A stretch of DNA of 64,000 bases from the IMG/VR virus record IMGVR_UViG_643348549_000020; one strand, given 5' to 3'. The translations under genes and the position numbers were made by a program. This DNA is from a virus (taxonomy: Duplodnaviria; Heunggongvirae; Uroviricota; Caudoviricetes). The notes under the pieces were generated by a model. It had not been told where the DNA came from and searched no databases. It worked only from the letters and a program-made list of their open reading frames with translations. Shown here piece after piece: positions 8,480-27,030 of this stretch. The stretch's first letter is position 1, and the number at the start of each line of letters is the position of its first letter.

Positions 8480-8489
8480 AAAACAGGAT

Positions 8490-9517: not shown

Positions 9518-12168
9518 CGCCTGCTCCCCGATAACATACCGCCATCACGCAACTGCAGCCGGAGCTCATCCTGCGCCCCCTTGCGGGCCATGTCATACAC
9601 CGCCTTCATCAGCTGCGGCCCCGCCTGTCCGTTGGTGCCGTCGTTCTGAATCACCACGTGATTGTTCTGATTAAAATTAATGCCTTCCGTCCGCCGCATC
9701 TGCGCCGGACTTCCGGCACCGCCCACATAACCCCCTTCCGCATAGCCCCGCATCAGGCGGTACAGGTTGCCGACGCCAATCCGGCTGGTTGCCTCCTTCG
9801 TGAAGACAAACTCCCCGCGATGAACAATTCCCGCAGGTTCATATTTACCCCCCGTCCCCGTAAATCCCCCGGTCGCGAAATGGAAGTTCGCCGCCGCAGC
9901 CTGAATGGCCGTCCCCGTGGAGGCAGACGCACCACCACCGAAAGCACCGCCAATGGCGCTGCCGATACGCCCGACAATGCCCACCATGGCCTGTTTAAGC
10001 AGGATTTCTGTCATCATGGACAGCACCGAACGGGTGAATCCCCGCCAGTCTGCCTCTGCACCGGTCAGCATCGCCGCCATATTCTGTGCAATACCGTCAA
10101 AGGTCTGCGTGGCAGCACTTTTAACCTGCGAAAAACTGTCCGTCGCACTTTCCGCCCACTCGCCCCAGCCGGACTTCAGCCCGGCCATCCAGCTTCCACG
10201 AAGCTGCTCCTCCGCAGACCAGGTGTTCTTCAGTGCCGATGTGGCCTTCGCCAGCGCAGCCGGATTATCACCGTACACGTCCCGAAGACGCTGCGCTTCA
10301 GACTCCCGCTGCGCCTGACGGTCAGTGAGACCGCGGGCTTTTGCGCTGATGGCGGCCTGCTTCGCGCTCTGCTGCTCTTCAAACCGCACCGCCTGCTGTG
10401 CCAGCTCATTCAGGCGTTTCTGGTATTCAACCTTGTCGCCCAGCTCAGCCAGCTGGCGTTTGTACTCCAGCGTCTCGTCTTTATGCGCCAGCAGGGATTT
10501 TTCCTGCTCAGATAACTGTCGTTTCGTGGCAGCCTCTTTCAGGACCGCATACTGACTTTCCGCCTTCCATAAATCACGGCGCTGCCGGCTGATTTTCTCA
10601 TTCGCACCGCTGTGTTTTTCCAGCGTCCTGAGCTCAGCTTCAAGGGCAAGCAGAGCCTCTCTTGCCTGCTCCTCTTCCCTCTCCCCGGCAGAGCGCGTTT
10701 TCGGTGATGTATGCTTTTTACCTGTCAGCTCTTCAGCCAGACGGCTGACGGCTTCCTGCTGCCCCGGACCTTTGCTGACGCCTGTTGCACGCGAACGGTT
10801 GATGTACCCCATTTCCCCCTGGCGTATACGCGCATCCCGTTCCGCAATGGATTTTCTCAGCGCCAGTTCATCACGTTTTGTTTTCTCAATAAATACGCGG
10901 TTCTCTTCTGCCAGTTCACCAAACAACGCACCAACGCCGGGCACATTCTTTGTCGTTTCCCAGGCTGACTGAATAAATTCAGCCAGCGCCAGATCCCCCT
11001 GCACAAGCAGCAGCTTCACCTGTTCAACGGTTCCTGCCACCACGTCAGTGATCAGACTGAGTGCCCCCAGTGTATGATCACCTATCCATGCCCATGCGTC
11101 AGAAGTCCAGGTTTTAACATCGTCCCAGATTTTTTCCACCGGCGTGGCCGCTTTATCAAGTTGCTCCAGACGTGCATTCATGACATCCGCAAACAGGGAC
11201 ATCGCCTCCGTCACCGCAGCCTGTTTACCTTTCGTGCGCTCAAGCTCATCAATATGGCGTAACTGGGAAACGCTCAGGAAGTTATACTGCTGATTCAGGG
11301 AGGCCAGCGCCTTCACCGGATCTGCTGCAATCCCTTCAAAGGCTTTTTCCACCTTCCCGGCATCGTCCCCCACCGTCTGCAGCCATCTCTGAGAGGTTTC
11401 CCCCATGATCCGTAGCTGCCCGGCGGTATATTTCCCGCTTTCTGCCAGACGGGCCAGATTTTCTGCCGCCTGTCTGATACCACCACCGGCTTCATCGCTG
11501 ATCACCCCGGCCATTTTCCACAATTCTGCCGTTGTGGTGGCAGCAGCCCCTCCGGTCAGGGTCAGTGAACGCAATAAGGCCCGGTCAGCCTGCTCTGCCT
11601 GCCAGGCGGCGGCAGCAAGCGCGGCCAGTACGGCAACCCCGCCACCTGCCGCCACACGGGCCACCGACATAAATCGTCCCAGCTCACCGGCATTCCGGGC
11701 ATTTTCAGCCAGTGCATTTGCCGTATCTGACAGCGACTCCTCTGATGATTCAGAGGCATCCCTGATCCCGAGAAGTTCCTCCTTCAGCAGGGTAAGCAGG
11801 CTGAGCGGTCCACCGAATGAATCGCTGATCTGCCCCCCCTGCTGCAGCATGATAAGGAAGGGATTCTGACCACCGGCAAGCTGAGTGACAATATCCGTGA
11901 ACTGTGCGGGCAGTGTGCGCATGGCAGCCTTATACTGTCCGACTGATATCCCGGCTTTTTGTGCAGCCAGCGCCTGTCGGCTCAGACTCTGCTCAGCAGC
12001 ATCAGCCTGTTTTCTGAAAGACTGACTGACTTTCCCGGACATCAAATCAGCAAGCGCACTGGTTTCACCCAGCTCTTTTTTTACCCGCGCTGCCTCTTCA
12101 GAAAAACGGGCAGAATCCAGTGTCAGCACGGCTGTCAGATCGGCAAAATTACCTGCCATCGTGGTCAC
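9514..12168 (-). CDS. H: Tail tape-measure protein H (884 aa)
   Basis: Long Ala/Gln/Glu-rich coiled-coil protein with glycine-rich C-terminal region in the tape-measure position. Confidence 0.9.
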   Translation of the reverse strand: MTTMAGNFADLTAVLTLDSARFSEEAARVKKELGETSALADLMSGKVSQSFRKQADAAEQSLSRQALAAQKAGISVGQYKAAMRTLPAQFTDIVTQLAGGQNPFLIMLQQGGQISDSFGGPLSLLTLLKEELLGIRDASESSEESLSDTANALAENARNAGELGRFMSVARVAAGGGVAVLAALAAAAWQAEQADRALLRSLTLTGGAAATTTAELWKMAGVISDEAGGGIRQAAENLARLAESGKYTAGQLRIMGETSQRWLQTVGDDAGKVEKAFEGIAADPVKALASLNQQYNFLSVSQLRHIDELERTKGKQAAVTEAMSLFADVMNARLEQLDKAATPVEKIWDDVKTWTSDAWAWIGDHTLGALSLITDVVAGTVEQVKLLLVQGDLALAEFIQSAWETTKNVPGVGALFGELAEENRVFIEKTKRDELALRKSIAERDARIRQGEMGYINRSRATGVSKGPGQQEAVSRLAEELTGKKHTSPKTRSAGEREEEQAREALLALEAELRTLEKHSGANEKISRQRRDLWKAESQYAVLKEAATKRQLSEQEKSLLAHKDETLEYKRQLAELGDKVEYQKRLNELAQQAVRFEEQQSAKQAAISAKARGLTDRQAQRESEAQRLRDVYGDNPAALAKATSALKNTWSAEEQLRGSWMAGLKSGWGEWAESATDSFSQVKSAATQTFDGIAQNMAAMLTGAEADWRGFTRSVLSMMTEILLKQAMVGIVGRIGSAIGGAFGGGASASTGTAIQAAAANFHFATGGFTGTGGKYEPAGIVHRGEFVFTKEATSRIGVGNLYRLMRGYAEGGYVGGAGSPAQMRRTEGINFNQNNHVVIQNDGTNGQAGPQLMKAVYDMARKGAQDELRLQLRDGGMLSGSRR

Positions 12169-12202
12169 CTCCTGAAATGTCCTCTGATACCATCAATAAC
12201 TG

Positions 12203-12562
12203 TCACAACCTCCTTCCCTCCTCCCCGAAACGGACTCCACCGGCGAGGCCCGCCGCCTTCTGCATCAGTACATCATTTTCGTCCGGCGTCTCCGCCTGTC
12301 CTTCCTCTGCCTCCGGAGCGAACAGGCTGAAATCCGCCGGATGCATATCCGGATCGCAAAAAAACAGGCTGAGTACGGCGTACATCAGCCCGGAAAAATG
12401 CATATCCAGCTGGGTATCCTGAAAATAATGCGTGCAGTAAAAACGTCGCCAGTCGGCATATTCGGTGGATGTCATCCCGGCAAGCATGGCGCGCCAGTCG
12501 GCTCTCTCCATCTCACGCGCCAGTTTCAGGACAAAGTTCAGCTCGCCTTCGAATGCTTTTTT
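12203..12562 (-). CDS. T: T-frame extension of tail assembly chaperone GT, entered by -1 programmed frameshift from G
   Basis: Slippery heptamer A_AAA_AAG (minus strand, 12562-12556) six codons before the G stop; -1 frame is open from there to the stop at 12203. Confidence 0.7.
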   Translation of the reverse strand, partial: KKAFEGELNFVLKLAREMERADWRAMLAGMTSTEYADWRRFYCTHYFQDTQLDMHFSGLMYAVLSLFFCDPDMHPADFSLFAPEAEEGQAETPDENDVLMQKAAGLAGGVRFGEEGRRL

Positions 12563-12960
12563 GATGTTACCGGCTCAGTCGCTTCTGTTTTCCCGGTTGG
12601 TTCAGGATCGGCATCGTGCCGGTTATCCAGCATACCTGAAAGATAAAGCACCCGGTTCGTTGCCTGATTCAGTGCATCAGCAGGCCATCCCAGCATCACT
12701 TCACGGCGGATCTGCTGCATCTCTGTCTCCGGAGAGGCCAGAGTGCCTTTGAGGGAATGGGAATGCCATAGCGACATCGCCACAAGCAGGGATGCCGTTT
12801 CCAGATATCGCTGGTTAATGTGCACGACATCATGCTTCGTTGTCTCCTGTTGTTCTGCGTCTGAAACAAACTTTATATAATCAAACCGCTGCAGCGCAGA
12901 CAATTCGGAAAGCGTGACGGACACACCGTTATATTCAAATTGTTCTGTTTTCAGAAACAT
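12538..12960 (-). CDS. G: Tail assembly chaperone G
   Basis: 140-aa ORF between V and H with the canonical frameshift site near its 3' end. Confidence 0.8.
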   Translation of the reverse strand: MFLKTEQFEYNGVSVTLSELSALQRFDYIKFVSDAEQQETTKHDVVHINQRYLETASLLVAMSLWHSHSLKGTLASPETEMQQIRREVMLGWPADALNQATNRVLYLSGMLDNRHDADPEPTGKTEATEPVTSKKHSKAS

Positions 12961-12973
12961 GTATTACCTCCGT

Positions 12974-13726
12974 TTACCCTGCAGCGCCCGCTTCAGTAAC
13001 GGTGACTTCAGCCACTGCGGCGAACTGACCATTTCCGCTCACCACAGGGATCTGCACCTTACCTGTCGCCACGCCGTTTACCGTAATTGTCATATCTTTC
13101 ACACTAATGGTGGCTTTCGACGGATCGGCGGAAACCGCTCTGAACGTCTTGTCGGTTGCACTTTCCGGCTCAAAAGAAACCGTCAGGGTGGTTGTTTTCC
13201 CTTTTGCCACCGTACCGGATGTCGGTGTCACCTTAATTGCAGTGGCCGGCGTAATTTCGCTGCGTTCTTCCGCCACGGAAGGTTTGCCCACGTTAGTGAC
13301 TTTCACCGTGCGGGTGATCACTTCTTTCGCCGTCACGGCCTTACCGATACTGCTGACCCAGCCACGGAACACATCCACCGTGCCATTTGGGAAACGGATT
13401 TTATAGGCCCGCACATCCCCGCTTTCAAACCAGCCTATAAGCCCTTTCTGACCTTCTTCTCCCGGTTTCCAGGCCAGCGTAAAACTGGTATCTCCTGCAG
13501 ACTTCTGCCCCTGCCCGGTCGCGGTCCAGTCCGCGTCTTCATCATCCAGGTAGTTATCATCGTAGGGTTCTGCCGTCATCTCGCCCGGCGTCAGATCCTT
13601 CACCTTAGCCAGTCGCTGCCAGTCATCGTCTGACAACGGGTTTGCATAAGCATCACCCTTGCCGTTGTAAACCCACAGAGTGGTACCGGCACCTTTTACC
13701 GGCTCAAGGGGATTTGGTGTTGCCAT
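12974..13726 (-). CDS. V: Major tail protein V with C-terminal Ig-like domain
   Basis: 250-aa ORF in gpV position; Thr/Val-rich beta-sandwich-like C-terminus. Confidence 0.85.
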
Positions 13727-13733
13727 ATCGTCC

Positions 13734-14132
13734 TCACATCTCGTAGGTAATTTTCCACAGGAGATCTGCCGATCCCCACATCATAAACTCATCATCCCGG
13801 CGGTAGTCATACCCCTGAAGATTCATCTTCAGCAGTAATGCACTGAGCCCGGGAACTGCCTCCAGCGCAGGAAGAATTTTTTCTTCCATCCACATATCCA
13901 GTGCCGAGTCCGGTTCTTTTGCCCTGAGAAAAACCTCAATATGCAGTGTCGCCTCCCAGGTTCCCTCATCAACGAACTCGTCAGCAGCAGACGCATCTGT
14001 CAGGTAAACAGCAACAGCAGGCAGTTCCTGTTCATCAATAAAAACCGGGCGACCGTCAAACCAGCTCACCCTCTCAGAAATATTTTCTTTCAGGGCAGAC
14101 AGAACTGCCGCCCGTATTTCACGGTGTTTCAT
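13734..14132 (-). CDS. U: Tail terminator protein U
   Basis: [14 protein letters not shown]...GYDYRRDD...ITYEM closely parallels lambda gpU. Confidence 0.85.
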
Positions 14133-14144
14133 ACACCCTCCCAG

Positions 14145-14774
14145 TCATTTTCTTTTCAGCACCAGGCGTAACTGATGCGTCATGGCTTTCATCATCTGCG
14201 CCGGTAATTTTTCCCGGTACATCCGGTCCCGTTCACGTTCAAAGGTTTCTGCCAGCGGTCCGGCAGTCGTAATCTTCACCACTTCGATCGGCAGACGGTG
14301 GCGTTTCGGCCTCCCTTTGCTGTCCGCGCCGGTGGATGATGATGCCCACGGCATACGCTGCATCACATGCCAGCGTCCGTTAGCCAGCCGGGTGATAAAG
14401 GCGTCCGGGATCCGTCTTTTCCCCACAATCAGCACACTGCCGCCCCCTTTCAGGGCCGCACGCTGTCCTTTCTTTCTCCGTTTTCTGCGGGAAAGTCGAA
14501 CGCGGGCCTCCCCCAGTTTGATGGCGGGCAGGTTGCCGGTATTGATGTAAACCTTTGCGTAAACCTTATCCGGTCGTGCCGGACTTAACCGGATGCGGGC
14601 ACGGATAAGACGACGGGGAACGGCCAGCTCCCTGGCAACTGAAGAGGCCGTTTTCGCAATAATGGCCCCCGCCACTCGGTTCAGTGTCGTGGCAGAGGCC
14701 CGGGGAACGGCACGGCGATCAATTGCATCCAGATTTTTCATGGCCTGCGCCAGACCTTTTATTGCCATACTCAT
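14145..14774 (-). CDS. Z: Tail completion protein Z-like
   Basis: Basic 209-aa protein in the gpZ position upstream of U. Confidence 0.6.
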   Translation of the reverse strand: MSMAIKGLAQAMKNLDAIDRRAVPRASATTLNRVAGAIIAKTASSVARELAVPRRLIRARIRLSPARPDKVYAKVYINTGNLPAIKLGEARVRLSRRKRRKKGQRAALKGGGSVLIVGKRRIPDAFITRLANGRWHVMQRMPWASSSTGADSKGRPKRHRLPIEVVKITTAGPLAETFERERDRMYREKLPAQMMKAMTHQLRLVLKRK

Positions 14775-15052
14775 TCCTGTTCGACAAAAATCCGGGGTTT
14801 ACCGTTGTACGTGTCATAACGGGTCACCGTCAGTGTGCGCCCCGCAAACACAACAACATCATGACGGGCCGGACGGTACCGGGCTGAAAACACCACCAGT
14901 GACAACTGGCTGCCCGAAAGCGCCCCCATCTCCGCGGACTCTTCCTCCGGCATCACGTCGTACACGACGCCGTTAATCTCCGCCTGTTTGCCCATCACCC
15001 GAACGGTCGCCACGTCCATCCGGCAACACATTCGCGTAAACAGATCAGACAT
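14771..15052 (-). CDS. Head-tail connector (FII-position) protein
   Basis: Small ORF overlapping Z start; assigned by gene order only. Confidence 0.4.
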   Translation of the reverse strand: MSDLFTRMCCRMDVATVRVMGKQAEINGVVYDVMPEEESAEMGALSGSQLSLVVFSARYRPARHDVVVFAGRTLTVTRYDTYNGKPRIFVEQE

Positions 15053-15371
15053 TGATTTTTACCGCCACAGTGGCGCTGTTTGCAGGGGCATTTTCCCAGG
15101 CTACCCCCGCTGCCACCGCACCGTCTGCAGCCAGCTGCACAACCCCGTCCTTCAGATAAACCACCGCGCCGGACTGAATGTCGTCAGCAGACTGTTTGGG
15201 CAGCAGGAACACGCCTTCGGCAAAACCGTCACCGGCCTCACCGGCAGGAATATCGGTAATGGCCACGGCCACCATACTGCCGACCACCACCGCAGCACCG
15301 CTCAGGATGGTCTGATCTCCGGCATTCACCAGTTCAATGGTGGTACCGTCCTGTACAAAATTTTTCGCCAT
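15045..15371 (-). CDS. Small Ala/Gly/Val-rich head protein (DUF2190-like, FI position)
   Basis: 108-aa ORF immediately downstream of the capsid gene; low-complexity beta-rich sequence. Confidence 0.4.
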   Translation of the reverse strand: MAKNFVQDGTTIELVNAGDQTILSGAAVVVGSMVAVAITDIPAGEAGDGFAEGVFLLPKQSADDIQSGAVVYLKDGVVQLAADGAVAAGVAWENAPANSATVAVKINV

Positions 15372-15458
15372 AATGCTGTTTCTCCGGACAGCCCCTGTGG
15401 GGCTGTTTTTCAGGCATAAAAAAAGCCCTTTCGGGCAGTGATTGTGATAACGCGGTTA

Positions 15459-18400
15459 TCAGGCCACCGACGAACGCACCAGCCCGCGCCAGTCAAGTGG
15501 TGCCACTCCGGCATCAATACGGATTTTTGTGGCAATGCCGTCAGTGGTGAAACCTTCCTGCTGATCAATGTATGGCGTGTCCACACCATCCAGCCAGGCC
15601 ACTTCAATGGTGTCAGTGCCCTGTGCCGCCGCCAGATACCAGGTTTTCGGGTCTGCCGCATCAAGACGCGCTTCTGCAATCACCTCAGCAAAGTTCTGGA
15701 TAGGGTTAATGACACCGGCGTTTGCATCCGCCCCTTTCACACTGGCCGATTTGATGGTCTGGTTCGCCACCGTCTCCAGTGCCACCGGTACCAGCATAAA
15801 GGCCGGACGGATATTCAGGGCACGATCGCCTTCTTTCTGCAGGCGCATCATCTGACGGGCCGCATCCAGTCCGGAAACGGAGATCCCCCCGGTGGCAATA
15901 TTTTTGTGATCGGCATGGAACAGCGCCTTACCGTCGGACAGTTTCGGGTTATCCGTCAGCACCTTGTAGACCAGGTCACCAATCGTTGCCTTCGCCGCAC
16001 GCCCCATCTTCATCGGCACGTCCACCAGCATATTCAGATCATCATTGATAATGGCCTGGCGGGTGATGGAGAAAATCTCCCCGTAAGTGGCCAGTGCAAT
16101 GGTCTCCTTGCGATCTGAGGTGGTGATGTATTTATACTCCGCCCCCTCACGAACCTGGCGCAGAGAACCAAAACCGCCCATCCCCACGCGATACGCTGTT
16201 TTGAAGTCTGACAGGCGTCCCTTACGGGTCCACTTCTGGAAGGTTTCTTCTGATTCCTCCCAGCCCTGGATCAGCCCCTTGTTCGACACATCCAGCAGAA
16301 TATTGCCAAAATCAGAGGTGCTGTGCGTCAGCGCCAGCCCGACCATCTGCATGGGGTTATAACTGGCCACCCCAATACCGCGCTCCGTCAGTGACATGCG
16401 AGCCCATTCACGCAGGGTCATCCCGTTATAGGCGTTATCCTTCTCGACATTTTCAAATCCGGCACGGGCCAGCATCGCCTGGCGGATCCCGTCCCCCACA
16501 AAATTGCCGTTTCCGGCATAAATATGGGCCGGTGTATTTTTGTTGGTCGGCGAGGACTCCTTGCCCATTTCATTCAGCAGACGTTCACGGGCCATTTCCA
16601 GCGAACAGTCAGGATCAGCCACGCACTGTGCCTGAAGCGTCTGATAGCGACCGCCGAACATGGCAAACAGATCGTTAATGCCTGACATGCGGGCTTTCTG
16701 CTCAGCCATAACGCGGGCGCGAATGGTCGCCTCATCAGACACTGCCGGTACCGGTGATGGTTCTGTTACCGCCGGTGCAGGGATTGTCACTGTGGTATCA
16801 CGCGGGGCACTGTTGCGTGGCGGAGTAATCATGTTTCGGATGGATTCCGGCATCTTTTTAAATTCCTCTGTACGTTTTGACTGAATACATGCCATTGCCT
16901 CAACAGCGGGTGTCACCTGGTCAGCAAATCCGTGTGCCAGACATTCGGCACCGGACATCCAGGTTTCATCCGCCAGCATGGCGGCAATTTCATCGGTGGT
17001 TTTTCCGGTTTTCTGCGCATAGGCTGGCAACAGTACCGATTCGACTTTATCCAGCAAATCGGCATAACTGCGCATATCCTCAGCATCCCCGCCACTGAAT
17101 CCCCATGGCTTATGGATCATCATGAAGGCATTTTCCGGCATAATGACCGTATCACCGGCCATCGCAATCACAGATGCCATCGAGGCGGCAACGCCATCCA
17201 CATACACGGTAATGGTCGCCCCCTGATTTTTCAGGGCATTAAAAATGGCGATGCCTTCAAAGACATCGCCACCCGGTGAATTGATATGGAGATTAATGTG
17301 GGTGATATCACCCAGTGCATTCAGTTCGCTGACAAACTGCTTCGCGGTAACTCCCCAGAAACCAATCTCGTCATAAATATAAATATCCGCGTCACCCGGC
17401 CCCCCAGCTTGCATCCTGAACCAGGATTTATTCTTCATGCTGGCTTTCGGTGTCGCGCTGATACTGTCGTTCAGTTCCGGCACTGTTGCCTCCTTTGTCG
17501 TTGACGGGGTCAGTATCAAAGACCAGCCCCAGTCTGCTGTTTTCATCAATTTCAGCCTTGCGGCGACGTTTGACCTCATCCCGGATTGCGCCCCCGGCAC
17601 GCACCCAGTCAGATTCTGTCGCTGCACACCCCGGATCTGAATTCTCCAGGCTTCAGCTTCCTTAACCGGGTCGATCCACGGCATCACCGGACCGGAATAC
17701 GTCGCGTTATATAGCGTTTTCATCTCCACATCCGCCGGAATTTTCAGCAGACCTGCCGCAACCACCATATTCAGCCATGTCCGGTACACCGGGCGGGTTA
17801 CCGCGCCAATAAAACAGTCCTGCAGGATCAGGTAACCATCCGTGGACTCGACCAACTCCTGCCGCTGGGCGCTGTAGGTGCCGTTATAGTTACGCGCCGC
17901 ACTGGAAAAACTCAGACGACTGCCTGCTGCCACTGCACGCAACTGGCCGTTGCGGAAAGTTTCAAGGTTGGGATTGGGACGGTCAGATTTGACCATGCCG
18001 ATATCCTCGCCCTTGCGCAAATCGTCATAAATAATACCCGGGGTGATATGGACTTCCCGCTCGGTCTCTTTGCTCCCCGGATCTTCATAGTCCTGTCCGT
18101 CACCTTTACGGATATACAGTCCCAGCGCCGCAGCAATACGCGCCGCTGTCAGTTCCGCATCCTCATACTCCTTAAGGGCACTGATCCGCATCAGCACCCC
18201 CGATAACATGGATGAGCCTCGCGTCTGATGCAGACGACGAGTGAACTTCAGGTGGATCATTTTTCCGGCAGCGATTTCTTTCGTATCACTCTGCCGGCCT
18301 CTGACCGGATAATTTTTATAAACCAGATATTTTTTCGGTCTTCCCCACTCATCAAGAAAAACCCCCTGATTCAGTCCGGCGGATTCATCAGTGCGCATGG

Positions 18401-18929
18401 GAACAAAATCCGGCTCCATCGCCTCAAGCCAGAATGGCACTCCCGCCGTCCGTTCCAGACCGTTTCCCGCACCACTGACCATCTGCGCAAACACTTCACC
18501 ATCCCGCAGCCAGGTCCGCAGCAGTAAACGTTCAAGCACAGGACGGGTATACTGCCCTGTCACATCCGGACTCACGGACCATTCAGCCCACAAACGGCGG
18601 ATATCCGCAGCCAGCTCAGCCGCCATTTCCCCGTTTTTTCGTAATGGCTGAGGCTCCACAATAATTCCCCTGGCACCAATCACCCGCTCTTCCAGCTTGT
18701 CAAACACACCAATCACCAGGTCATGATTGATATCCAGAAAACGGGCCTGCTCCCGCAGGGAAACCGCACCGTATTTACTGAGCTGATCAGCAGAGCGATT
18801 TTCCCGCCGGGCTTTATGTGTCCGGGTCGGTTTCACCGCCTCATAGGCCATGATTAACGCCCTTGAACGCAGTCTGGCTGCTTTCCACCCGGGGGAAAAC
18901 ACGCCGATCACATCATCAATAATTGCCAT
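15459..18929 (-). CDS. Single 1156-aa ORF fusing portal protein (N-terminal about 435 aa) to ClpP-like prohead protease plus HK97-fold major capsid protein; fusion caused by a net 1-nt difference from copy Y at 17581-17630; protease/capsid could still initiate at internal ATG 17438
   Basis: ClpP signature GDITHINLHINSPGGDV; capsid-like C-terminus; copy Y has separate portal and protease/capsid ORFs. Confidence 0.7.
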   Translation of the reverse strand: MAIIDDVIGVFSPGWKAARLRSRALIMAYEAVKPTRTHKARRENRSADQLSKYGAVSLREQARFLDINHDLVIGVFDKLEERVIGARGIIVEPQPLRKNGEMAAELAADIRRLWAEWSVSPDVTGQYTRPVLERLLLRTWLRDGEVFAQMVSGAGNGLERTAGVPFWLEAMEPDFVPMRTDESAGLNQGVFLDEWGRPKKYLVYKNYPVRGRQSDTKEIAAGKMIHLKFTRRLHQTRGSSMLSGVLMRISALKEYEDAELTAARIAAALGLYIRKGDGQDYEDPGSKETEREVHITPGIIYDDLRKGEDIGMVKSDRPNPNLETFRNGQLRAVAAGSRLSFSSAARNYNGTYSAQRQELVESTDGYLILQDCFIGAVTRPVYRTWLNMVVAAGLLKIPADVEMKTLYNATYSGPVMPWIDPVKEAEAWRIQIRGVQRQNLTGCVPGAQSGMRSNVAARLKLMKTADWGWSLILTPSTTKEATVPELNDSISATPKASMKNKSWFRMQAGGPGDADIYIYDEIGFWGVTAKQFVSELNALGDITHINLHINSPGGDVFEGIAIFNALKNQGATITVYVDGVAASMASVIAMAGDTVIMPENAFMMIHKPWGFSGGDAEDMRSYADLLDKVESVLLPAYAQKTGKTTDEIAAMLADETWMSGAECLAHGFADQVTPAVEAMACIQSKRTEEFKKMPESIRNMITPPRNSAPRDTTVTIPAPAVTEPSPVPAVSDEATIRARVMAEQKARMSGINDLFAMFGGRYQTLQAQCVADPDCSLEMARERLLNEMGKESSPTNKNTPAHIYAGNGNFVGDGIRQAMLARAGFENVEKDNAYNGMTLREWARMSLTERGIGVASYNPMQMVGLALTHSTSDFGNILLDVSNKGLIQGWEESEETFQKWTRKGRLSDFKTAYRVGMGGFGSLRQVREGAEYKYITTSDRKETIALATYGEIFSITRQAIINDDLNMLVDVPMKMGRAAKATIGDLVYKVLTDNPKLSDGKALFHADHKNIATGGISVSGLDAARQMMRLQKEGDRALNIRPAFMLVPVALETVANQTIKSASVKGADANAGVINPIQNFAEVIAEARLDAADPKTWYLAAAQGTDTIEVAWLDGVDTPYIDQQEGFTTDGIATKIRIDAGVAPLDWRGLVRSSVA

Positions 18930-19165
18930 TAAAACCTCGCCAGTTTAAATCCCGGTTTTCCCCGCCTGCGGCTCACCATCGCGGCAAGCCTGCGTTCCCA
19001 CTCCTGACGTCCGGCGCGGATCTGAGAAAGGCTTTCCAGCGTCAGTTGCTGCCCGTTGAAGATGACAGACTTTCCCTCCAGTACGGCCATTTCCGCTTCA
19101 CGGTACCGCTGTATCATTTCTCTGGCTTCTTCTGTGCTCACAACCAGCCTCCTGATGTTATCCAT
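18929..19165 (-). CDS. W: Head-tail joining protein W-like
   Basis: 78-aa ORF between terminase and portal; C-terminal RRRGKPGF resembles lambda gpW. Confidence 0.6.
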   Translation of the reverse strand: MDNIRRLVVSTEEAREMIQRYREAEMAVLEGKSVIFNGQQLTLESLSQIRAGRQEWERRLAAMVSRRRGKPGFKLARF

Positions 19166-21261
19166 GGATTATCTTCCGCACGCTCCGTCCGCAGTTTTTT
19201 CTTCCGGCGACGGCGTTTTTCTGCCCCGGCCGTCAGTTCCGGGGATACCGTTTCACCAGAACGCTCCTGCGGGAAGACGAGCCACGTTTCCCGCTGTGCC
19301 CAGTCCGGTGCGGAGGGCCAGCGGATCTTTTCGTAACCATGCAGAACGGCAAGCGCATCCGCATAAACCAGCAGGTCAAACGCTTCGTTAGCGCCCCTGC
19401 CCGGTTTTCGCCATTTTCCGTCACTGCCGCGCTCTTCATAGGTCAGCTCATCGTAAAACCACCGCCCCAGCCAGTCGGGAAAGTGGATATAGTTCGGCCC
19501 TGGTGTGTCACGCCACAGGGCATTATTTACACGATCCTTAAACGCATCCGTCTGAACCAGCCACAGCGCGACATCGCCACTGGCTCTGGCACGGCGGGCA
19601 CTTCTGCCGGTATTATCCGGGAAGGTTCGGTTAATCAGCCTGTCACGGCGAAGTCCATCCCCCTTGAACAGAAACACCCTGTTGCCCAGTCCGTCACTCC
19701 GGCAACGACGCCAGAAACGATAGGCGTTATCTGTCACCCCGGCTTCCCCTCCCGTATCCACCGCCATGGCCATCAGACGCATGCGCACATCCGGATCAGA
19801 AGCCAGCGGCCATGTTTTATGGAACACATCCGTCAGCAACAAATCCCAGTCCTCCGGATATGCCGCCGGATCAACCGGCAGACTTTCACCGTTGGGACTG
19901 CAGCGCAGTGAATGCCGGATGTTGTAGCGATCAACAATCCAGCGTTCCCCCTGCTCTCCGTATCCGGTGATCTGCACAACAAAACGGCGATTTTTACCGC
20001 CCTGTACGTCAACCGTTGCCTCAATAAAACGCACACCATCCGGCACAGATCGCCGGGGAAACGGCTCGGCACGCTGTTCAAGCAGTTCACTTTTACGCTG
20101 TTCCGTGGCTGAACGGGGCAGATAGGGTCGTCCGATATCGGTGTTCACCACCGCTTTCAGGGTCTCTTCACTGCCGGTTCGCTCATACTCTTCTTCTGCC
20201 GCCAGCAGTTTAAAAATCAGTTGTTCCCAGGTCTGAAACGCCGCAGCTGGCCCCTCCATCCAAAATGACGCAATCCGGGAGTTTCGTGGCGTTCCGGTGA
20301 TACTGCCGTCCGCCGCCGCCCGTTCACCTTCACGAAGCCAGATCCCCTGGTTATTCAGTTCGCGTTTCTGCTCAGGGGCAATCAGCCCGCGACAATGCGG
20401 ACACATCAGACGGGCAGCCTGACCGGCAGCCACAAAATCCGGGTTATTCCGGTATCCGGTCATGTTATCCATCACCGGCTGAAAATATTCCCCGCAGTGC
20501 GGACACGGCCAGTACCACCGGCGGCGGTCTCCCCGGTTATACAGTGACAGGATCCCCGTTGTTGGCGGTGCCTCATGTGCGCCACCACAACGCCATTTGG
20601 TATCGGTGATATCCCGCCCCGGTGAACTCTCGACCAGGGTCATCCCCGAGGACATAAAGGTGGTGGTACGCTTTGAGGCCAGCGTGAAGGCATCCCCTTC
20701 CCCGTCCACATTTTCAGGGAAACGGTCATAATCCGTCAGCGCCACACGACGGTAATCCGAAGAGGAAAAGACGGTGATCGACGGCCAGCCAATCTTCAGG
20801 AAGGAGCCGTCAAGAAACATTTTATCGTGGACGTTGTTGTCATTACGGGAAGGACTGAGGCGCTTGCTGACCTCCGGACTGTGGCGAAACGTCCTGGAAA
20901 GACGCGTTCTGGAATGCTCACGCGCCTTCGTCTCAGTCATCTGCACCACCAGCATATCCGCCGGATCACAGATGATGCCGTACACAATCCAGCCATCAAT
21001 CAGCCCTTCGGTTTTCCCGGTTCGCGCAGGTCCCACAAACACCACCGCGTCATATTCACGGGCTGATAATGTATTAATGGGGTCAATCATATAGGGCGTC
21101 AGCGATGACTCCCACGGACCGGAAGTATTGGCTCCCCGTGGAACCCGCATATAACGCCTGATGGCTTCCGCTACTGGTAACCGGCTGGGTGGGCGAAACA
21201 GCGAGGCCACTTCGCGCCAGATATCGGATGCGCGGCTATGGCTCTCGTTCACCTGATTCAC
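19138..21261 (-). CDS. A: Terminase large subunit (lambda gpA-like)
   Basis: 707 aa; ATPase motif FVGPARTGKTE; C-terminal region colinear with lambda A. Confidence 0.9.
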   Translation of the reverse strand: MNQVNESHSRASDIWREVASLFRPPSRLPVAEAIRRYMRVPRGANTSGPWESSLTPYMIDPINTLSAREYDAVVFVGPARTGKTEGLIDGWIVYGIICDPADMLVVQMTETKAREHSRTRLSRTFRHSPEVSKRLSPSRNDNNVHDKMFLDGSFLKIGWPSITVFSSSDYRRVALTDYDRFPENVDGEGDAFTLASKRTTTFMSSGMTLVESSPGRDITDTKWRCGGAHEAPPTTGILSLYNRGDRRRWYWPCPHCGEYFQPVMDNMTGYRNNPDFVAAGQAARLMCPHCRGLIAPEQKRELNNQGIWLREGERAAADGSITGTPRNSRIASFWMEGPAAAFQTWEQLIFKLLAAEEEYERTGSEETLKAVVNTDIGRPYLPRSATEQRKSELLEQRAEPFPRRSVPDGVRFIEATVDVQGGKNRRFVVQITGYGEQGERWIVDRYNIRHSLRCSPNGESLPVDPAAYPEDWDLLLTDVFHKTWPLASDPDVRMRLMAMAVDTGGEAGVTDNAYRFWRRCRSDGLGNRVFLFKGDGLRRDRLINRTFPDNTGRSARRARASGDVALWLVQTDAFKDRVNNALWRDTPGPNYIHFPDWLGRWFYDELTYEERGSDGKWRKPGRGANEAFDLLVYADALAVLHGYEKIRWPSAPDWAQRETWLVFPQERSGETVSPELTAGAEKRRRRKKKLRTERAEDNPWITSGGWL

Positions 21262-21734
21262 ATATCGGCCTCATCACAACAGTCAATGACTGCCTTTTCC
21301 AGTGTGTCGCGGATCTCATCAACCACAATCTGTACTTCATTCAGTTGTGATGCAGTCCACCCCCTGTCCCTCTCCAGCCGGTCAGGCCAGGTTTCCAGTA
21401 CCTGAACTATCGCTTTCACCACGACAGAAAAGGACCGCCTGACATCACTGACTGGCACAAGCTGAACAGTTTCATGCTGAAATTTAAGACGCTCGCGCTC
21501 GGACTGATACCATGCCTTACGAGCGTGAGGATCCATATCCTCATCTTCGGAAGATGGTGGTTTTTCCAGCAACGAAGTTATCAAATCCGTCAGGAGATAC
21601 AGTTTTTTCTTTTCATTACTGCCTGGTGCAAGAGGAACATCCGCCATTCTGGCGGCAACAGTCTGCCGGTGCAGACCTGAAAGGGCTGCCAGTTGATTAA
21701 TATTTAACTTCATATTTTTCAGCTCGCCGTCCAT
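21258..21734 (-). CDS. Terminase small subunit (Nu1-like, N-terminal HTH)
   Basis: Overlaps terminase large start; LNINQLAALSGLHRQTV HTH resembles Nu1. Confidence 0.7.
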   Translation of the reverse strand: MDGELKNMKLNINQLAALSGLHRQTVAARMADVPLAPGSNEKKKLYLLTDLITSLLEKPPSSEDEDMDPHARKAWYQSERERLKFQHETVQLVPVSDVRRSFSVVVKAIVQVLETWPDRLERDRGWTASQLNEVQIVVDEIRDTLEKAVIDCCDEADM

Positions 21735-21759
21735 TTACATCCCTCCACATAAACCGCAG

Positions 21760-21990
21760 AACAGAAGTGACTCTGTTTTTTTGTAAAGAAATGCCGCCAT
21801 ATAAAGATGTCGAACAAAAAACAACCACAATCATCATCTTTTTAATACTAACAGCATTAAAAACAACAAGTTACCATCATGATGATGATGACGATAAAAT
21901 CACAAAAATGCGCCTTTTTCCGCGCCCGCCCGCCCCGTGTTCAGGCCCACCCCACCAGGAGGACCCGCAAAAATGATAATGGTTATCATT
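21760..21990. other. Probable cos region (cohesive-end and terminase binding sites) between Rz and terminase small subunit
   Basis: Noncoding AT-rich segment followed by GC-rich cgcgcccgcccgcccc block, at the position of cos in lambda-like genomes; exact cosN not determined. Confidence 0.35.
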
Positions 21991-22189
21991 TGCAACAAAA
22001 TCCAGTTTCTTCCACCATCGCACCGGACTGGCGACTATGAGGGGACAACACCGCGCTCCGTTAACGCGGTAAACCCCGGTGTGTATCGTTTTTGATTATC
22101 CCCGCACACTCTCGCAGAGGAGTCTCCCTGTCTGGCTGCGGTCTCTGTTAATGCAGGAATACGGTGACGATACGTCGCATCAGCAAAAC

Positions 22190-22657
22190 TTAGTTCAGGC
22201 ACTGAGTGCGGATATAGTCCTGTGCCCCTTCCAGCTGCTTCTGCATTGTCATCAACCGTTCTCTGAGGATGAAATAATCCCGTTCAGCGGTGTCTGCCAG
22301 TCGGGGGCCGGTTGCATTATCCACGCCGGAGGTGCCGGTGGCTTCACGCACGGTACCGGAGCAGGTGGCGTTGATCCGCAGGCGCTTACGACCAGCGGCA
22401 ACATCAGCACGCAGAGTTTCATTTTCAGCTCTCGCATCGGCTAACTCCCTCGAGTATTTTGCATCGAGCGCAGCAACATCACGCTGGCGCACCTGCATGT
22501 CAGTAATGGTGGCATTCGCCTGTTCCAGCTCTCTGGCTTTTTTATCGCGCTGCGCTTTGTAGGTGAGCGCGTTGTCACGGTAATGGTTTGTTGCCAGCCA
22601 CAGCGCACCATAGCCAACCGCCAGGACAATAATCACCACACACAGAACACGGTTCAT
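22190..22657 (-). CDS. Rz: Spanin inner-membrane subunit Rz
   Basis: N-terminal transmembrane segment then coiled-coil; downstream of endolysin. Confidence 0.85.
22252..22437 (-). CDS. Rz1: Spanin outer-membrane lipoprotein Rz1, embedded in Rz in another frame
   Basis: Lipobox LVVSAC followed by a proline-rich mature region; entirely inside Rz. Confidence 0.75.
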
Positions 22658-22810
22658 CTCTCTTTCACCCCACCAGTCCCGATAACGTCAGGACTCGCCA
22701 GGCGGTGGAAAAGAAAATGGCAACCAGCATGACTAAAAATGAAATGCCGACAAGTACACAGAGGCTCTTCACCAGCGTTATGAGTTTATCTGATATCATT
22801 AGCCACCCCA

Positions 22811-23380
22811 TCAATCCGCCTTTGTTATTTTCCCTTTGCCTGTATCAGCCAGGACAAAATCAATCAGCATATTCGCTTCATTTACCAGCGTACGGATTTT
22901 TGATACATGCGCGGCTTTAACCTGTTTCCACTCATTCAGCCCGGTAGCAAACACACTGGCAATGTTTTTATCCCGTTTCATGTCAGCACAAGCCTGGTTG
23001 AGTTCTTCCATCACGCTCATTTTACGGGGATTAACGACAAAACCCTTCGTCCAGTACTCGTAAAGAACATCGTCGCACTCTTCCTGATACCGGATGACCT
23101 TATCGCGGATTTCGGGTTTTACTTTGTTGGGATTAATGGTTTGTAGCCAGCCGGCAAGTTTTCGAAGTGGCATGGACACCATATTGCGTTGTTTCCCATC
23201 CTCAGCAACCATAACGATTTCCGTTATAGTTGACGCAAAACGCTGTCTTAACTTAGCCAACTGTGATTGCCAGGCCAGCCCCATCCCCGCAACGACAGGT
23301 TTCATGGGAACGTATGGTTCGCCATTATGGTTAACTACATAAAGAGAGTTGCCGTGAAACGGCACGGCCATCATATTCAT
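22811..23380 (-). CDS. Phage antirepressor-like protein located between R and Rz
   Basis: N-terminus MNMMAVPFHGNSLYVV... typical of Ant/Bro-N type antirepressors. Confidence 0.55.
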   Translation of the reverse strand: MNMMAVPFHGNSLYVVNHNGEPYVPMKPVVAGMGLAWQSQLAKLRQRFASTITEIVMVAEDGKQRNMVSMPLRKLAGWLQTINPNKVKPEIRDKVIRYQEECDDVLYEYWTKGFVVNPRKMSVMEELNQACADMKRDKNIASVFATGLNEWKQVKAAHVSKIRTLVNEANMLIDFVLADTGKGKITKAD

Positions 23381-23650
23381 CGGTTATTTCCTTTTAGTGA
23401 TGAACCTTGTCTCACAGGAATCCAGCCCACAGAAAGGCACCGACAGCCAAACCGGTATCCTCAAGGGTCATCCTGAAAGGTTCTGTGTTGTGAGATGCGC
23501 GTGAGATGCGCAGAAATGACAAAGGCATCATTACGGTGCCTGAGTGTTAAACAACTGTTTTGACTTTATTCACTTACATTTTGCCAATTTGCAGGATTTC
23601 GTGTTATCCGTCCATGTAAGCAAACCTCATTTTTCAGCAAAATATTCTTC

Positions 23651-24184
23651 TTATCTGTCGATTCCCCAGCACGCCAGCGCGCTCTCCTGGTCACGACGGG
23701 ATACCTGACCGTAACAGTTGTTTGAACGAATACGGCAGTCTCTGCCACCGTCCTTAATCCACCAGCGAATAGCTTCGCAGGCACCTTTTCGATCACCTGC
23801 ATTAATTCGTCTGTAAAACGTCGACGGGAAACACTTACCGGGACCAATGTTGTACGGACAGAATGACGCGATCCCCGCTTTCTGGGGTTCGGTCAGCGGC
23901 ACTTTAATGTTTTTCTCCACCCATGCCAGCGCCTTATCACGCTCAATGGCGTTAACCCGGTCGCATTTTTCCTTCGACAGCTTCATGCCAGGAATAACAG
24001 GCTTACCATCCACCCGGGTGGCTCCACGGCAGATGGTCCAGATACCCGCACCATCACGGTATGCTGTGGTGTGGTTACCTTCCTTTTCATCCAGAAACTG
24101 GTCGAGGATTTCAGGCGCAGAAGCACCTGCGGCAATCAGCGCCAGAACGGCAGCCGATAAACCATAGCGGAGTTTCCTGCTCAT
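23651..24184 (-). CDS. R: Endolysin R (phage lysozyme, T4-lysozyme-like fold with signal-anchor)
   Basis: N-terminal hydrophobic segment then EGNHTTAYRDGAGIWTICRG lysozyme-type motif; follows holin. Confidence 0.85.
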   Translation of the reverse strand: MSRKLRYGLSAAVLALIAAGASAPEILDQFLDEKEGNHTTAYRDGAGIWTICRGATRVDGKPVIPGMKLSKEKCDRVNAIERDKALAWVEKNIKVPLTEPQKAGIASFCPYNIGPGKCFPSTFYRRINAGDRKGACEAIRWWIKDGGRDCRIRSNNCYGQVSRRDQESALACWGIDR

Positions 24185-24188
24185 CAGC

Positions 24189-24404
24189 TTACTCTCCCCG
24201 TGCCGCCTTACGCCGGTCTTCTTTAATCTTGAAATACAGGTTCGTCAGATATGTCAGCAGCCCAAACAGCAGACTCCCCAGCACGCCTATTGCCGCCCAC
24301 TGAGACGGGGAAACCCTGTCCAGCAACTGCAGGAACCAGTAGCCCGTTCCCACCGCTGACGTGGTGTATGACACACCTGTTGTGATTTTTTCCATCTGGT
24401 ACAT
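24189..24404 (-). CDS. S: Holin S with dual-start motif (MYQM...)
   Basis: Two transmembrane segments and basic C-terminus; two Met separated by two codons; ORF is open upstream to 24479. Confidence 0.75.
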
Positions 24405-24481
24405 ACCCCGTCTCCCGCAATCCGGAAGCTCACAACAATAAAAAAGACCACCGGCACACACCGATGGTCCCTGACGCATGC

Positions 24482-24727
24482 TTACATCATCATGTCGCTG
24501 TCCGGTGTGGGGTCACCGCTATCTGAAGCACTCCCCTCACCCGCGATGCCTTCCGGCTCCGGAGCTGCCGGTGCGCCCAGCAGTTCATCCAGAATGGCAT
24601 CCACTTCTGCATCAAGACGCGCTTCCAGGTTATGGCGAAGTTTCTGTTTCAGTGCGCTCCGGACTTCTTCAGAGCGCAGGACTTCCTTCACTGCTTCAGC
24701 AGTGACCAGGGATGTAATTTCTGACAT
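24482..24727 (-). CDS. Small acidic protein of unknown function (81 aa) upstream of the lysis cassette
   Basis: ATG at 24727; conserved position before S in Stx-type prophages. Confidence 0.45.
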
Positions 24728-25083: not shown

Positions 25084-27030
25084 TCATGCCGCAGTGTCTG
25101 TGCTGTTCACTTCCACCGCAATGCTGTCTATCAGTACCGGGTAAGTCGCACCTCTGGTAATGTCTGTCACATGCAGTTTATCCGCCGCAAAGGCACTGAC
25201 CGGTGACTGCGTCAGCGTGAACGGTGTACCATCCTGACCATCAATAACCGGCGTCACCTGAAGGCTGTTATTCCCGGCAAAGCGGAAAGCCAGCGCATGC
25301 CATTCGTTATCAAATGCGCCAAAGCTTCCCAGTTTCAGGTTGTTTGTCGCCACTTTCGCATTGTGGTACATCACATTCAGGTCTTTTGCATCTGTCTGGA
25401 TGTAGAACGCTGCCAGCAGGTTATTCCCCCCGTCTCCGGTCAGGGCAACGCCCTGTGGCAGTGAAGATACCGGCCAGTAAAACGCCATAACATACTGGTT
25501 CGCAGCCAGCGCTCCCGAAACCTTAAAGCGGCAGCGAATCTGCCCCCCTTTCTGTAACAGAGCCGCACCGTTGCCCGCGGCGTACTCCAGCACCCAGCTG
25601 CTTTTACCGGCTTCCTTGGTCAGCTTCACTGCCTTACCTCCGGTTCCCTCCGCATCGCTGACCACTTCTGCCCTGCCGCCACTGGCTGACCATCCCTGTA
25701 CTTTCAGGCTTCCCTCTGACTCGCTGGCAAGGTAAGAGAGCAGTGTTGTGATGCCTGTGGCTTCTGCACCGGAAGGCGATGACGGGCGCACCTCTGATAC
25801 TGTCGATGATGCCCCCGCGTTTAGCGCCACTCTTCCCGCATGGCGCAAAATCGCCGTTGCCAGACGGTCGGAAATAATCCCACGGCGTGCCCAGGCGCTG
25901 AAATGGCTCGCCCTGTCCTGTGACGTCCAGGTGGCTGAGCTGTCACGCCATTTCGAACCGTAATATCCGATACCCGGAATGTCCGGGTCTTCTTCCGGTT
26001 TGTTCGTCGGCACATTCACCCCGTTCTCATCCGTCATGAACGGTACGAAATGGATATTTTTTTCCGTTTTGTTTTTATAGCTGCCGTACACCGTCTGGTA
26101 CGTGGATTCGTTCTTCTGCTTCCAGAAATACGTCGTATCTCCACATATCCAGGGAACACCGCCAGCAGAGCCACCGACGCACTGACCTGCCATATCCGCC
26201 AGGTCTGCACGGAATTTATCAACCAGCGCACCAAACTGTGCTGCGTGATTTGCCGGCGTACCGCCAAAATCAAATTCCCCCTGCATCCACACCACGGCAA
26301 ACAGCACATTTTTCGGATTCTTCTTCAGTGCTGCTTTTGTTCGACCGATAAGGTCCTTATACAGCGGCTTGTCCACACCCCAGCGGGTTGAATTCTCCGA
26401 GGCACCACTCGCGTCACTGTATGTGCCATCAGCTCCGGTGGTGAACGCTGAACCACCACGACAGCACGGAACCAGCAGAATGCCCGCATTCGCCGGTATA
26501 AACGGCAGCAATTTTTTGGCGATATGCAGCCCCTGCCCCACGGTTCCGTACTGCCCCTTTGACAGGTCCGCTTTCGGATGGTTAAGGCGGCTCATGTCCT
26601 GCACATCATGCAGACAATGGTCCGCCGGAATGATGTCGTTATATTTACAGGCGACACCGCCCGGTGTCACCGTACTGCGACGCGCCAGCTGCTTAATGCG
26701 CGGGTCCGGACGGTCATATGTCTCCGGCAGCGGAAGACCTTCACCATACGACATGCCGTTTGACTGCCCTGCCAGAACCACAACAAAGTAATACCCGGGG
26801 TCGCTGGTGGCGCTGATTACTGCACCTTCTCCACCTGTCGGCTTCACCACAACAGGTGTGCTCACATCACCTTCTGCGACAATCGCCTGAATAAGTGCTG
26901 CGCCATCATCCGTATACGAAGAAAACGGCCCACCATATGGTTGCCATCCTTCACGAATTTTTTGCGCAAGTGCATCAGCAAGGTCTGACGGCGACGCCGC
27001 CCTGACAACATCATAATGTTTAAATGTCAT
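25084..27030 (-). CDS. nanS: Prophage-encoded sialate O-acetylesterase (NanS-p type, 648 aa)
   Basis: SGNH/SASA-type motif VVLAGQSNGMSYGEG; size and position (between Q and S) match NanS-p of EHEC prophages. Confidence 0.7.
   Translation of the reverse strand: MTFKHYDVVRAASPSDLADALAQKIREGWQPYGGPFSSYTDDGAALIQAIVAEGDVSTPVVVKPTGGEGAVISATSDPGYYFVVVLAGQSNGMSYGEGLPLPETYDRPDPRIKQLARRSTVTPGGVACKYNDIIPADHCLHDVQDMSRLNHPKADLSKGQYGTVGQGLHIAKKLLPFIPANAGILLVPCCRGGSAFTTGADGTYSDASGASENSTRWGVDKPLYKDLIGRTKAALKKNPKNVLFAVVWMQGEFDFGGTPANHAAQFGALVDKFRADLADMAGQCVGGSAGGVPWICGDTTYFWKQKNESTYQTVYGSYKNKTEKNIHFVPFMTDENGVNVPTNKPEEDPDIPGIGYYGSKWRDSSATWTSQDRASHFSAWARRGIISDRLATAILRHAGRVALNAGASSTVSEVRPSSPSGAEATGITTLLSYLASESEGSLKVQGWSASGGRAEVVSDAEGTGGKAVKLTKEAGKSSWVLEYAAGNGAALLQKGGQIRCRFKVSGALAANQYVMAFYWPVSSLPQGVALTGDGGNNLLAAFYIQTDAKDLNVMYHNAKVATNNLKLGSFGAFDNEWHALAFRFAGNNSLQVTPVIDGQDGTPFTLTQSPVSAFAADKLHVTDITRGATYPVLIDSIAVEVNSTDTAA

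What the first reader, a model, noticed from the sequence alone, without database searches (positions are those of the whole stretch)
17560..17650. Portal gene of prophage X is frame-fused to the protease/capsid gene by three clustered 1-nt indels
Relative to copy Y (63121-63210), copy X has +1, -1, -1 single-base differences and one substitution within 60 bp, all in C-rich runs. The result is a single 1156-aa ORF in X, whereas Y has a portal with its own stop and a separate protease/capsid gene. The portal C-terminus is replaced in X, so X may be assembly-defective; alternatively these are homopolymer sequencing errors.
Basis: seen in the sequence. Interest (0 to 1): 0.6.

Follow-up and report, generated by a model that had tools for sequence, protein, structure and literature searches.

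The report
Frameshifted portal gene, probably sequencing artefact
Three one-base differences that weld a prophage's portal gene onto its protease/capsid gene are really in this sequence, but they occur in only one primary genome assembly (E. coli O157:H7 EC4115) and most likely mark a local sequencing or finishing error, or at best a private pseudogene, so the finding is ordinary.

Summary
Copy X differs from copy Y by +C (17580), -A (17593) and -C (17626), which gives one 1156-aa ORF (15459-18929, minus strand). Only the 17626 deletion (portal codon 435) causes the fusion; the other two indels cancel each other.

The Y frame is the native one. Its C-terminus is conserved in portals from Escherichia to Synechococcus phages.

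The window is E. coli O157:H7 EC4115, at the yehV locus. There a circular copy of the ompW prophage has recombined into the resident Sp15-like prophage; this structure is already published.

Among 5426 complete E. coli genomes (735 copies of this segment), only strain TR01 carries the X state. TR01 looks like a reference-guided copy of EC4115. TW14359, from the same outbreak, and at least 15 other strains have an otherwise identical prophage with an intact 500-aa portal.

The three indels are the only indels in 64 kb relative to a TW14359-derived composite. They sit at the edge of a 0.45-1.5 kb tract of paralogue-type SNPs, about one Sanger read long. EC4115 was assembled from Sanger shotgun plus finishing reads.

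Best reading: a local assembly or finishing artefact (about 0.75). Rival: a real private pseudogene (about 0.2). It is not a programmed frameshift and not an evolved fusion. PGAP already annotates this gene as "frameshifted".

The parts
17580..17626 (-). The lesion: +C at 17580, -A at 17593 and -C at 17626, relative to Y, to the ompW prophage and to the orthologous prophages of other strains. This corresponds to CP001164.1 2,908,714-2,908,760.
15459..18929 (-). The 1156-aa fused ORF. Residues 1-434 are native portal, 435-497 are out-of-frame linker, and 498-1156 are the complete ClpP-like protease/major capsid protein.
17428..18929 (-). Lambda-family portal gene of copy X. PGAP annotates it as a 'frameshifted' pseudogene in the TR01 record.
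15459..17438 (-). ClpP-like prohead protease/major capsid fusion gene (659 aa, WP_000792357.1). It is intact and keeps its own ATG at 17438.
17855..18300 (-). Minimum extent (maximum 17597-19061) of a tract inside the X portal where X carries the B/Y-type alleles (17855 A, 18073 C, 18300 T) instead of the alleles of its own orthologues. The indel patch sits at the left edge of this tract.
62997..64000 (-). Copy Y portal gene, cut by the window end, with its native C-terminus and own stop codon.
61028..63007 (-). Copy Y protease/major capsid gene. Its product is identical to that of X.
26060..26076 (.). Crossover interval. To its left X is yehV-prophage (A) type and Y is ompW-prophage (B) type; to its right the types are swapped. 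This is the signature of a single reciprocal homologous crossover.
44087..44118 (.). attP-like core inside a 126-nt ompW fragment. The integrase arm and the cargo/tail-fibre arm of the ompW prophage meet here, so the inserted unit is a circularly permuted phage genome.

Best explanation
The window is the yehV prophage region of E. coli O157:H7 EC4115. The three 1-nt indels most likely arose as a local error of the 2008 Sanger shotgun plus finishing-read assembly. This is a triply repeated, nearly identical portal region (X, Y and the ompW prophage). A misplaced or single low-quality read, or a unitig seam, from a B-type copy could have supplied both the three B-type SNPs (17855-18300) and, at its poor-quality end, the three indels. 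Mechanically, the -1 at 17626 moves the portal frame at codon 435 into the protease frame. That frame is open for about 66 codons upstream of the protease ATG, so any net -1 error in this stretch produces the same kind of giant ORF. What is shown: the lesion itself, its uniqueness, the native frame, the SNP tract and the sequencing chemistry. What is inferred: that the cause is technical.
For: (1) Only one of 522 matching records (735 places, 5426 genomes) has the X state; the rest are Y-type. (2) The exact 1156-aa product is on record only in CP001164.1, which is EC4115. (3) The orthologous prophage in JEONG-1266, TW14359 and at least 14 other strains is identical over window 1-17579 and 18301-26076 and has an intact 500-aa portal. 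TW14359 comes from the same 2006 spinach outbreak (PMC9997748). (4) Against a TW14359-derived composite, the whole 64-kb window shows only these three indels plus 8 SNPs, so the patch is a local anomaly in an otherwise clean sequence. (5) The indels abut a 446-1465-nt tract of B-type alleles inside A-type sequence, which is about one Sanger read long. [quoted passage not shown] (7) TR01 differs from the window by 126 substitutions and no indel, contains isolated Ns, and has no plasmids reported. That pattern fits a reference-guided consensus rather than an independent observation. (8) Fourteen other fused portal-protease-capsid ORFs in E. coli assemblies are all singletons. In the eight whose sequences were read, the junction lies at six different positions, so sporadic frameshifts here are a recurrent trivial event.
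Against: No reads or quality values could be inspected. The rest of the window shows no sign of poor consensus quality. Finished JCVI genomes normally require multi-read coverage. One of the three indels (loss of an A between C runs) is not a simple homopolymer miscount. The DNA fold gives no hairpin that would explain a Sanger compression (z about 0). TR01's dependence on EC4115 is inferred, not documented.
Confidence: 0.75

Rival explanations
1. The lesion is a real, strain-private mutation. A gene-conversion tract from the Y or ompW copy into X, perhaps formed during or after the homologous-recombination insertion of the second prophage, left error-prone repair scars (three 1-nt indels) at its edge. 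This would make the X portal a true pseudogene. X would then depend on the near-identical portals of Y or the ompW prophage for head assembly.
For: The B-type SNP tract next to the indels is what a conversion tract would look like. A recent recombination event did occur in this very prophage pair (PMC9997748). The surrounding consensus is clean. PGAP treats the gene as a frameshifted pseudogene. From general knowledge, break-repair synthesis in E. coli can be mutagenic and biased towards 1-nt indels in G:C runs.
Against: The event would have to be a rare complex one, arising since the split from the same-outbreak isolate TW14359. No independent assembly shows it. Ordinary RecA-mediated conversion leaves clean junctions.
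Confidence: 0.2
2. The site is a programmed ribosomal frameshift, or an evolved portal-protease-capsid polyprotein that is functional in prophage X.
For: Natural in-frame portal-protease-capsid ORFs do exist in distant lambda-like phages, so the architecture as such is not impossible.
Against: No slippery heptamer lies in or near the site, and no structure folds better than shuffled sequence. The state is not conserved: 1 of 735 copies. X replaces the conserved portal C-terminus with out-of-frame residues, whereas the natural fusions keep it in frame.
Confidence: 0.01
3. The patch was imported by recombination from a divergent portal allele.
For: Prophages of O157 are highly mosaic, and four records carry 80-90% variants of this segment.
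Against: Relative to its orthologue, the patch differs only by the three indels, with no accompanying substitutions. No other copy among the 735 places carries any of the X indel states at 99% identity or more.
Confidence: 0.02

Closest known systems
Frameshifted morphogenesis pseudogenes of defective lambdoid prophages in E. coli O157:H7 (the RefSeq/PGAP 'phage portal protein, frameshifted' class)
   Same: A lambda-family portal gene in a yehV (Sp15-like) prophage is interrupted by a net -1 frameshift. PGAP annotates exactly this gene as frameshifted in TR01.
   Different: Known O157 prophage defects are inherited across strains. This one is confined to one primary assembly and consists of three clustered indels, which points to an artefact.
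EC4115 second prophage at yehV (Eppinger et al. 2011; reinterpreted by Miyata et al. 2023, PMC9997748)
   Same: The window reproduces the published structure: an ompW-type prophage inserted by homologous recombination into the Sp15-like prophage. I map the crossover to 26060-26076 and the attP core to 44087-44118.
   Different: The passages of that paper I searched do not mention the portal frameshift or the B-type SNP tract.
Lambda gpB-type portal (Pfam PF05136) followed by a ClpP-like prohead protease/major capsid fusion (PF00574 + PF25209)
   Same: Both domains and the gene order terminase-gpW-portal-protease/MCP-decoration are present. The portal stop overlaps the protease ATG (ATGAAGAATAA) in Y and in all orthologues.
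   Different: In X the last 66 portal residues are lost.
Natural portal-ClpP-capsid single ORFs of high-GC lambda-like metagenomic phages (P0040-P0057; loci L009, L010)
   Same: The domain order is the same in one ORF of 1248-1290 aa, and the neighbouring genes are the same.
   Different: These keep the portal C-terminus in its native frame. They are conserved across lineages only 36-52% identical to each other. In the two loci whose DNA was read (L009, L010) there is an internal SD plus start codon before the protease. X does not share these features.

Membership tests
Lambda-family portal protein (PF05136, gpB-like) | Match to the Phage_portal_2 domain above the gathering score | tested here: met
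   269 bits against a cut-off of 32.9, residues 35-370, in both the X ORF and the intact orthologue.
Lambda-family portal protein (PF05136, gpB-like) | Conserved C-terminal segment (PWIDP..EA.AW....GG..T..D..R.GG....) read in frame | tested here: not met
   X leaves this frame at codon 435. The Y frame is conserved in 79 phage records down to 36% identity and aligns to the solved portal 8vhx_D up to residue 479.
ClpP-like prohead protease/major capsid fusion protein | CLP_protease and Phage_capsid_4 domains in one product with its own start codon | tested here: met
   (126 and 190 bits). The ATG at 17438 is intact, and the product equals WP_000792357.1.
Programmed -1 ribosomal frameshift | Slippery X XXY YYZ heptamer at the shift site | tested here: not met
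   none within nt 1200-1500 of the ORF.
Programmed -1 ribosomal frameshift | Downstream stimulatory structure | tested here: not met
   run with DNA energy parameters (an RNA fold was not run): minimum free energy is no better than shuffled sequence (z from -0.5 to +0.9).
Programmed -1 ribosomal frameshift | Conservation of the shifted arrangement among homologues | tested here: not met
   1 of 522 records.
Natural portal-protease-capsid single-ORF phages | Portal C-terminus retained in its native frame and joined by a linker to the protease | tested here: not met
Sequencing/assembly artefact | Absent from independent assemblies of the same or clonal strains | tested here: met
   TW14359 (same outbreak) and at least 15 orthologous prophages lack it. 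The only other carrier, TR01, shows signs of reference-guided consensus.
Sequencing/assembly artefact | Low coverage or low quality, or misplaced reads, at the site | not testable with these tools
   Traces are in the NCBI Trace Archive (PMC2945939) but cannot be reached from here.

The most novel reading that the evidence does not exclude
The patch is a genuine mutational scar: a cluster of 1-nt indels laid down by error-prone repair synthesis at the edge of a gene-conversion tract. On this reading it was created when a circular copy of the ompW prophage recombined into the yehV prophage, within the time span of a single outbreak clone. That would be a natural example of recombination-associated mutagenesis inactivating a prophage portal.
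Probability: 0.15. Interest if true: 0.3.

Novelty: not a real feature. Interest (0 to 1): 0.07.

Why it matters
It matters little biologically. At most, one prophage of an outbreak strain has a dead portal gene that two near-identical copies in the same cell could complement. The practical value is as a caution in three respects. First, a giant 'portal-protease-capsid' ORF in this phage family is the default outcome of any net -1 error in the last roughly 66 portal codons. Second, EC4115 carries a probable consensus error at CP001164.1 2,908,714-2,908,760. Third, TR01 appears to have inherited that error through reference-guided assembly, so the agreement between the two records is not independent confirmation.

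Tried and rejected
- **Pfam on X versus the intact portal.** The PF05136 model ends at residue 370, before the frameshift, so it cannot tell which frame is native. I replaced this test with tblastn of the C-terminus and a PDB sequence search.
- **TR01 as independent confirmation.** I rejected this after finding that the window is not TR01 (126 substitutions and no indel). TR01 also contains isolated Ns and has no plasmids reported.
- **Documentation for TR01.** I found no paper describing how TR01 or CP033605 was sequenced.
- **EC4115 RefSeq record.** NC_011353 is not in the E. coli collection. The Eppinger 2011 PNAS paper is not held.
- **Hairpin, Sanger compression or frameshift-stimulating structure.** There is no signal.
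- **Slippery heptamer.** None was found.
- **General poor consensus quality of the window.** Rejected, because there are no other indels against the TW14359 composite.
- **Donor allele for the patch.** None was found among 735 copies.
- **GGGAAAG search for the lambda-type G/GT tail-chaperone frameshift site.** There is no match at the gpG end, and I did not pursue it.

Full report
**1. The observation**

The window contains a long direct repeat: 1060-18430 (X) matches 46628-64000 (Y) at 96.7% identity. All the genes concerned lie on the minus strand.

A global alignment shows single-base indels in X at 17580 (+C), 17593 (-A) and 17626 (-C), and a G/A substitution at 17596. The only other indels are at the ragged left edge and a 9-nt/6-nt pair (net 3 nt) at 4929-4945.

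X has a single ORF, 15459..18929, of 1156 aa. Y has a portal ORF ending at 62997 and a separate protease/capsid gene whose ATG (63007) overlaps the portal stop codon (ATGAAGAATAA).

Reading the three frames shows what each indel does:
- The deletion at 17626 (portal codon 435) moves the portal frame into the protease frame. That frame happens to be open for about 66 codons upstream of the protease ATG.
- The next two indels cancel each other. They change RNP to AIR in the native portal frame.

The fused product therefore has three parts: 434 native portal residues, 63 out-of-frame residues, and the complete 659-aa protease/capsid protein.

**2. Which frame is native**

Pfam's lambda-family portal model ends at residue 370, so it cannot decide.

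The Y-frame C-terminus (PWIDPVKEAEAWRIQIRGGAATESDWVRAGGRNPDEV...) is found in 79 phage records. Where the listed records are annotated, the gene under the match is usually called a portal protein. The hosts range from Escherichia, Klebsiella and Salmonella through Pasteurella and Pseudomonas (47% identity) to Synechococcus (36%). This segment also aligns to a solved portal structure, 8vhx_D, up to residue 479.

The Y frame is therefore the real one, and X loses a conserved part of the portal.

**3. Where the window comes from**

The 131-nt X segment matches 522 records (735 places) among 5426 complete E. coli genomes. Only O157:H7 strain TR01 is 100% identical; all the others carry the Y state. 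In TR01, PGAP already annotates the gene as 'phage portal protein, frameshifted'.

The window is not TR01, however. It differs from TR01 by 126 substitutions in three spots, with no indel.

An exact-product look-up finds the 1156-aa ORF in CP001164.1, which is E. coli O157:H7 EC4115. Window 12459-21929 is identical to that record. The lesion maps to CP001164.1 2,908,714-2,908,760.

**4. The context is a published structure**

I aligned five sequences: X; Y; the yehV prophage of JEONG-1266; that of TW14359 (both type A); and the ompW prophage (type B). The pattern is:
- X is type A, with zero differences, over 1-17579 and 18301-26059, and type B from 26077 onward.
- Y is type B up to the equivalent of 26059 and type A beyond it.

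The integrase arm and the cargo arm of the ompW prophage meet at an attP-like core at 44087-44118.

So a circular copy of the ompW prophage entered the Sp15-like yehV prophage by one reciprocal homologous crossover, within 26060-26076. Miyata et al. 2023 concluded the same for EC4115 (PMC9997748).

TW14359 comes from the same 2006 spinach outbreak. It has the single, uninterrupted yehV prophage with an intact 500-aa portal.

**5. Real or artefact**

Relative to a composite built from TW14359's two prophages, the whole 64-kb window differs by:
- the three indels;
- three SNPs in the X portal (17855, 18073, 18300);
- five other SNPs.

TW14359 has one private 1-nt deletion of its own.

The three portal SNPs are B-type alleles inside otherwise A-type sequence. 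They define a tract of 446-1465 nt, and the three indels sit at its left edge.

[quoted passage not shown] It was assembled with Celera Assembler, which places repeat unitigs at several sites (PMC2945939). This region exists in three nearly identical copies in the genome.

A read-sized tract of wrong-copy alleles ending in a burst of indels is what a misplaced or single low-quality read, or a unitig seam, would produce. By contrast, a real event would require a rare complex mutation arising after the split from TW14359.

TR01 is not independent support:
- it shares every EC4115-private feature of the window;
- it differs from the window only by paralogue-like SNP clusters, with no indel;
- it contains isolated Ns;
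- it has no plasmids reported (PMC10731853).

That pattern fits a reference-guided consensus.

I therefore put about 0.75 on an artefact and about 0.2 on a real private pseudogene. Read-level data are needed to settle it.

**6. Other readings rejected**

*Programmed frameshift.* There is no slippery heptamer, no structure better than shuffled sequence, and no conservation.

*Evolved polyprotein.* A search of 5.8 billion proteins returned fourteen fused ORFs of 1080-1159 aa from E. coli assemblies. Every one is a singleton. In the eight whose sequences I read, the junction lies at six different positions: after IDPV, PVKE, EAW, IRGGA, VFDTD and GGSSA. These look like independent sporadic frameshifts. 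Any net -1 error in this roughly 200-nt stretch gives the same kind of ORF.

**7. If the lesion were real**

X would make a portal that lacks its conserved C-terminus and is tethered to protease/capsid. The protease/capsid gene would keep its own start codon.

The Y and ompW copies encode portals that differ from the X orthologue at no more than four nucleotide positions, so they could complement in trans. The biological consequence would be small.

**8. A by-product worth noting**

The same protein search found ORFs of 1248-1290 aa in high-GC metagenomic lambda-like phages (P0040-P0057). Their features are:
- the portal, with its C-terminus in the native frame, continues through a variable Ala/Pro-rich linker into the ClpP protease and capsid protein;
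- the six I aligned are only 36-52% identical between lineages, and all six have a single continuous ORF;
- the two loci I read (L009, L010) have the same neighbouring genes as here;
- those two loci also have an internal Shine-Dalgarno sequence plus start codon just before the protease.

This looks like a natural nested-gene arrangement. A phrase search of the held literature did not turn up a description of it.

Noticed in passing
L009 4001-7798; L010 4001-7762 (metagenome contigs); proteins P0040-P0057: Natural single ORFs of 1248-1290 aa encode portal (C-terminus in its native frame), a variable linker, ClpP-like protease and major capsid protein. Each of the six I aligned is one continuous ORF, and they are only 36-52% identical between lineages. 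The two loci I read have 67-69% GC, the same flanking genes (terminase, gpW-like, decoration) and an internal SD plus GTG/ATG start just before the protease domain. A phrase search of the held literature found no description.
   Followed up: partly
proteins P0001-P0014 (E. coli assemblies, about 75% identical to the X ORF): Fourteen fused portal-protease-capsid ORFs of 1080-1159 aa are all singleton clusters. In the eight I read, the frameshift lies at six different positions within the last roughly 70 portal codons, and two carry further frameshifts. A net -1 error here is a recurrent source of spurious giant ORFs.
   Followed up: yes
window 26060-26076 and 44087-44118: These are the reciprocal A/B crossover interval and the attP-like core. 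Together they show that the 45.5-kb second prophage is a circularly permuted copy of the ompW prophage, inserted by homologous recombination. It differs from TW14359's ompW prophage by only 5 SNPs. This agrees with Miyata et al. 2023.
   Followed up: yes
window 17855, 18073, 18300: Three SNPs in the X portal carry the B/Y-type allele, although the flanking 17.5 kb and 7.8 kb are identical to A-type orthologues. This is a conversion-like or misassembly-like tract of 446-1465 nt.
   Followed up: yes
window 16; 30700-31036; 45699-46519 compared with NZ_CP033605.1 (TR01); L007 3401-3407: TR01 differs from the window only by clustered substitutions (126 substitutions, no indel). It has isolated N characters near an IS1 element in its ompW prophage. 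It looks like a consensus built on EC4115 as reference, so it propagates EC4115-specific features.
   Followed up: partly
window 40883, 47430, 47549, 47559, 48575: These are five isolated SNPs between the EC4115 second prophage and TW14359's ompW prophage. I did not determine their origin, which could be real divergence, EC4115's own ompW copy, or error.
   Followed up: no
window 4929-4945 versus 50496-50519: A 9-nt/6-nt indel pair (net 3 nt) in the tail-tip protein J gene distinguishes the two prophage types. This is ordinary allelic variation.
   Followed up: no
window 21933 (TW14359 locus L005): TW14359 lacks one C that is present in EC4115, JEONG-1266 and the B copies. This is a private 1-nt deletion or sequencing error in that record.
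   Followed up: no
window 12209-12511 and 57778-58080: In the TR01 record of this same region, PGAP annotates 'tail assembly protein T' as an incomplete pseudogene in both copies. This is probably the unannotated G/GT programmed-frameshift product. The lambda GGGAAAG site is not present at the gpG end.
   Followed up: partly
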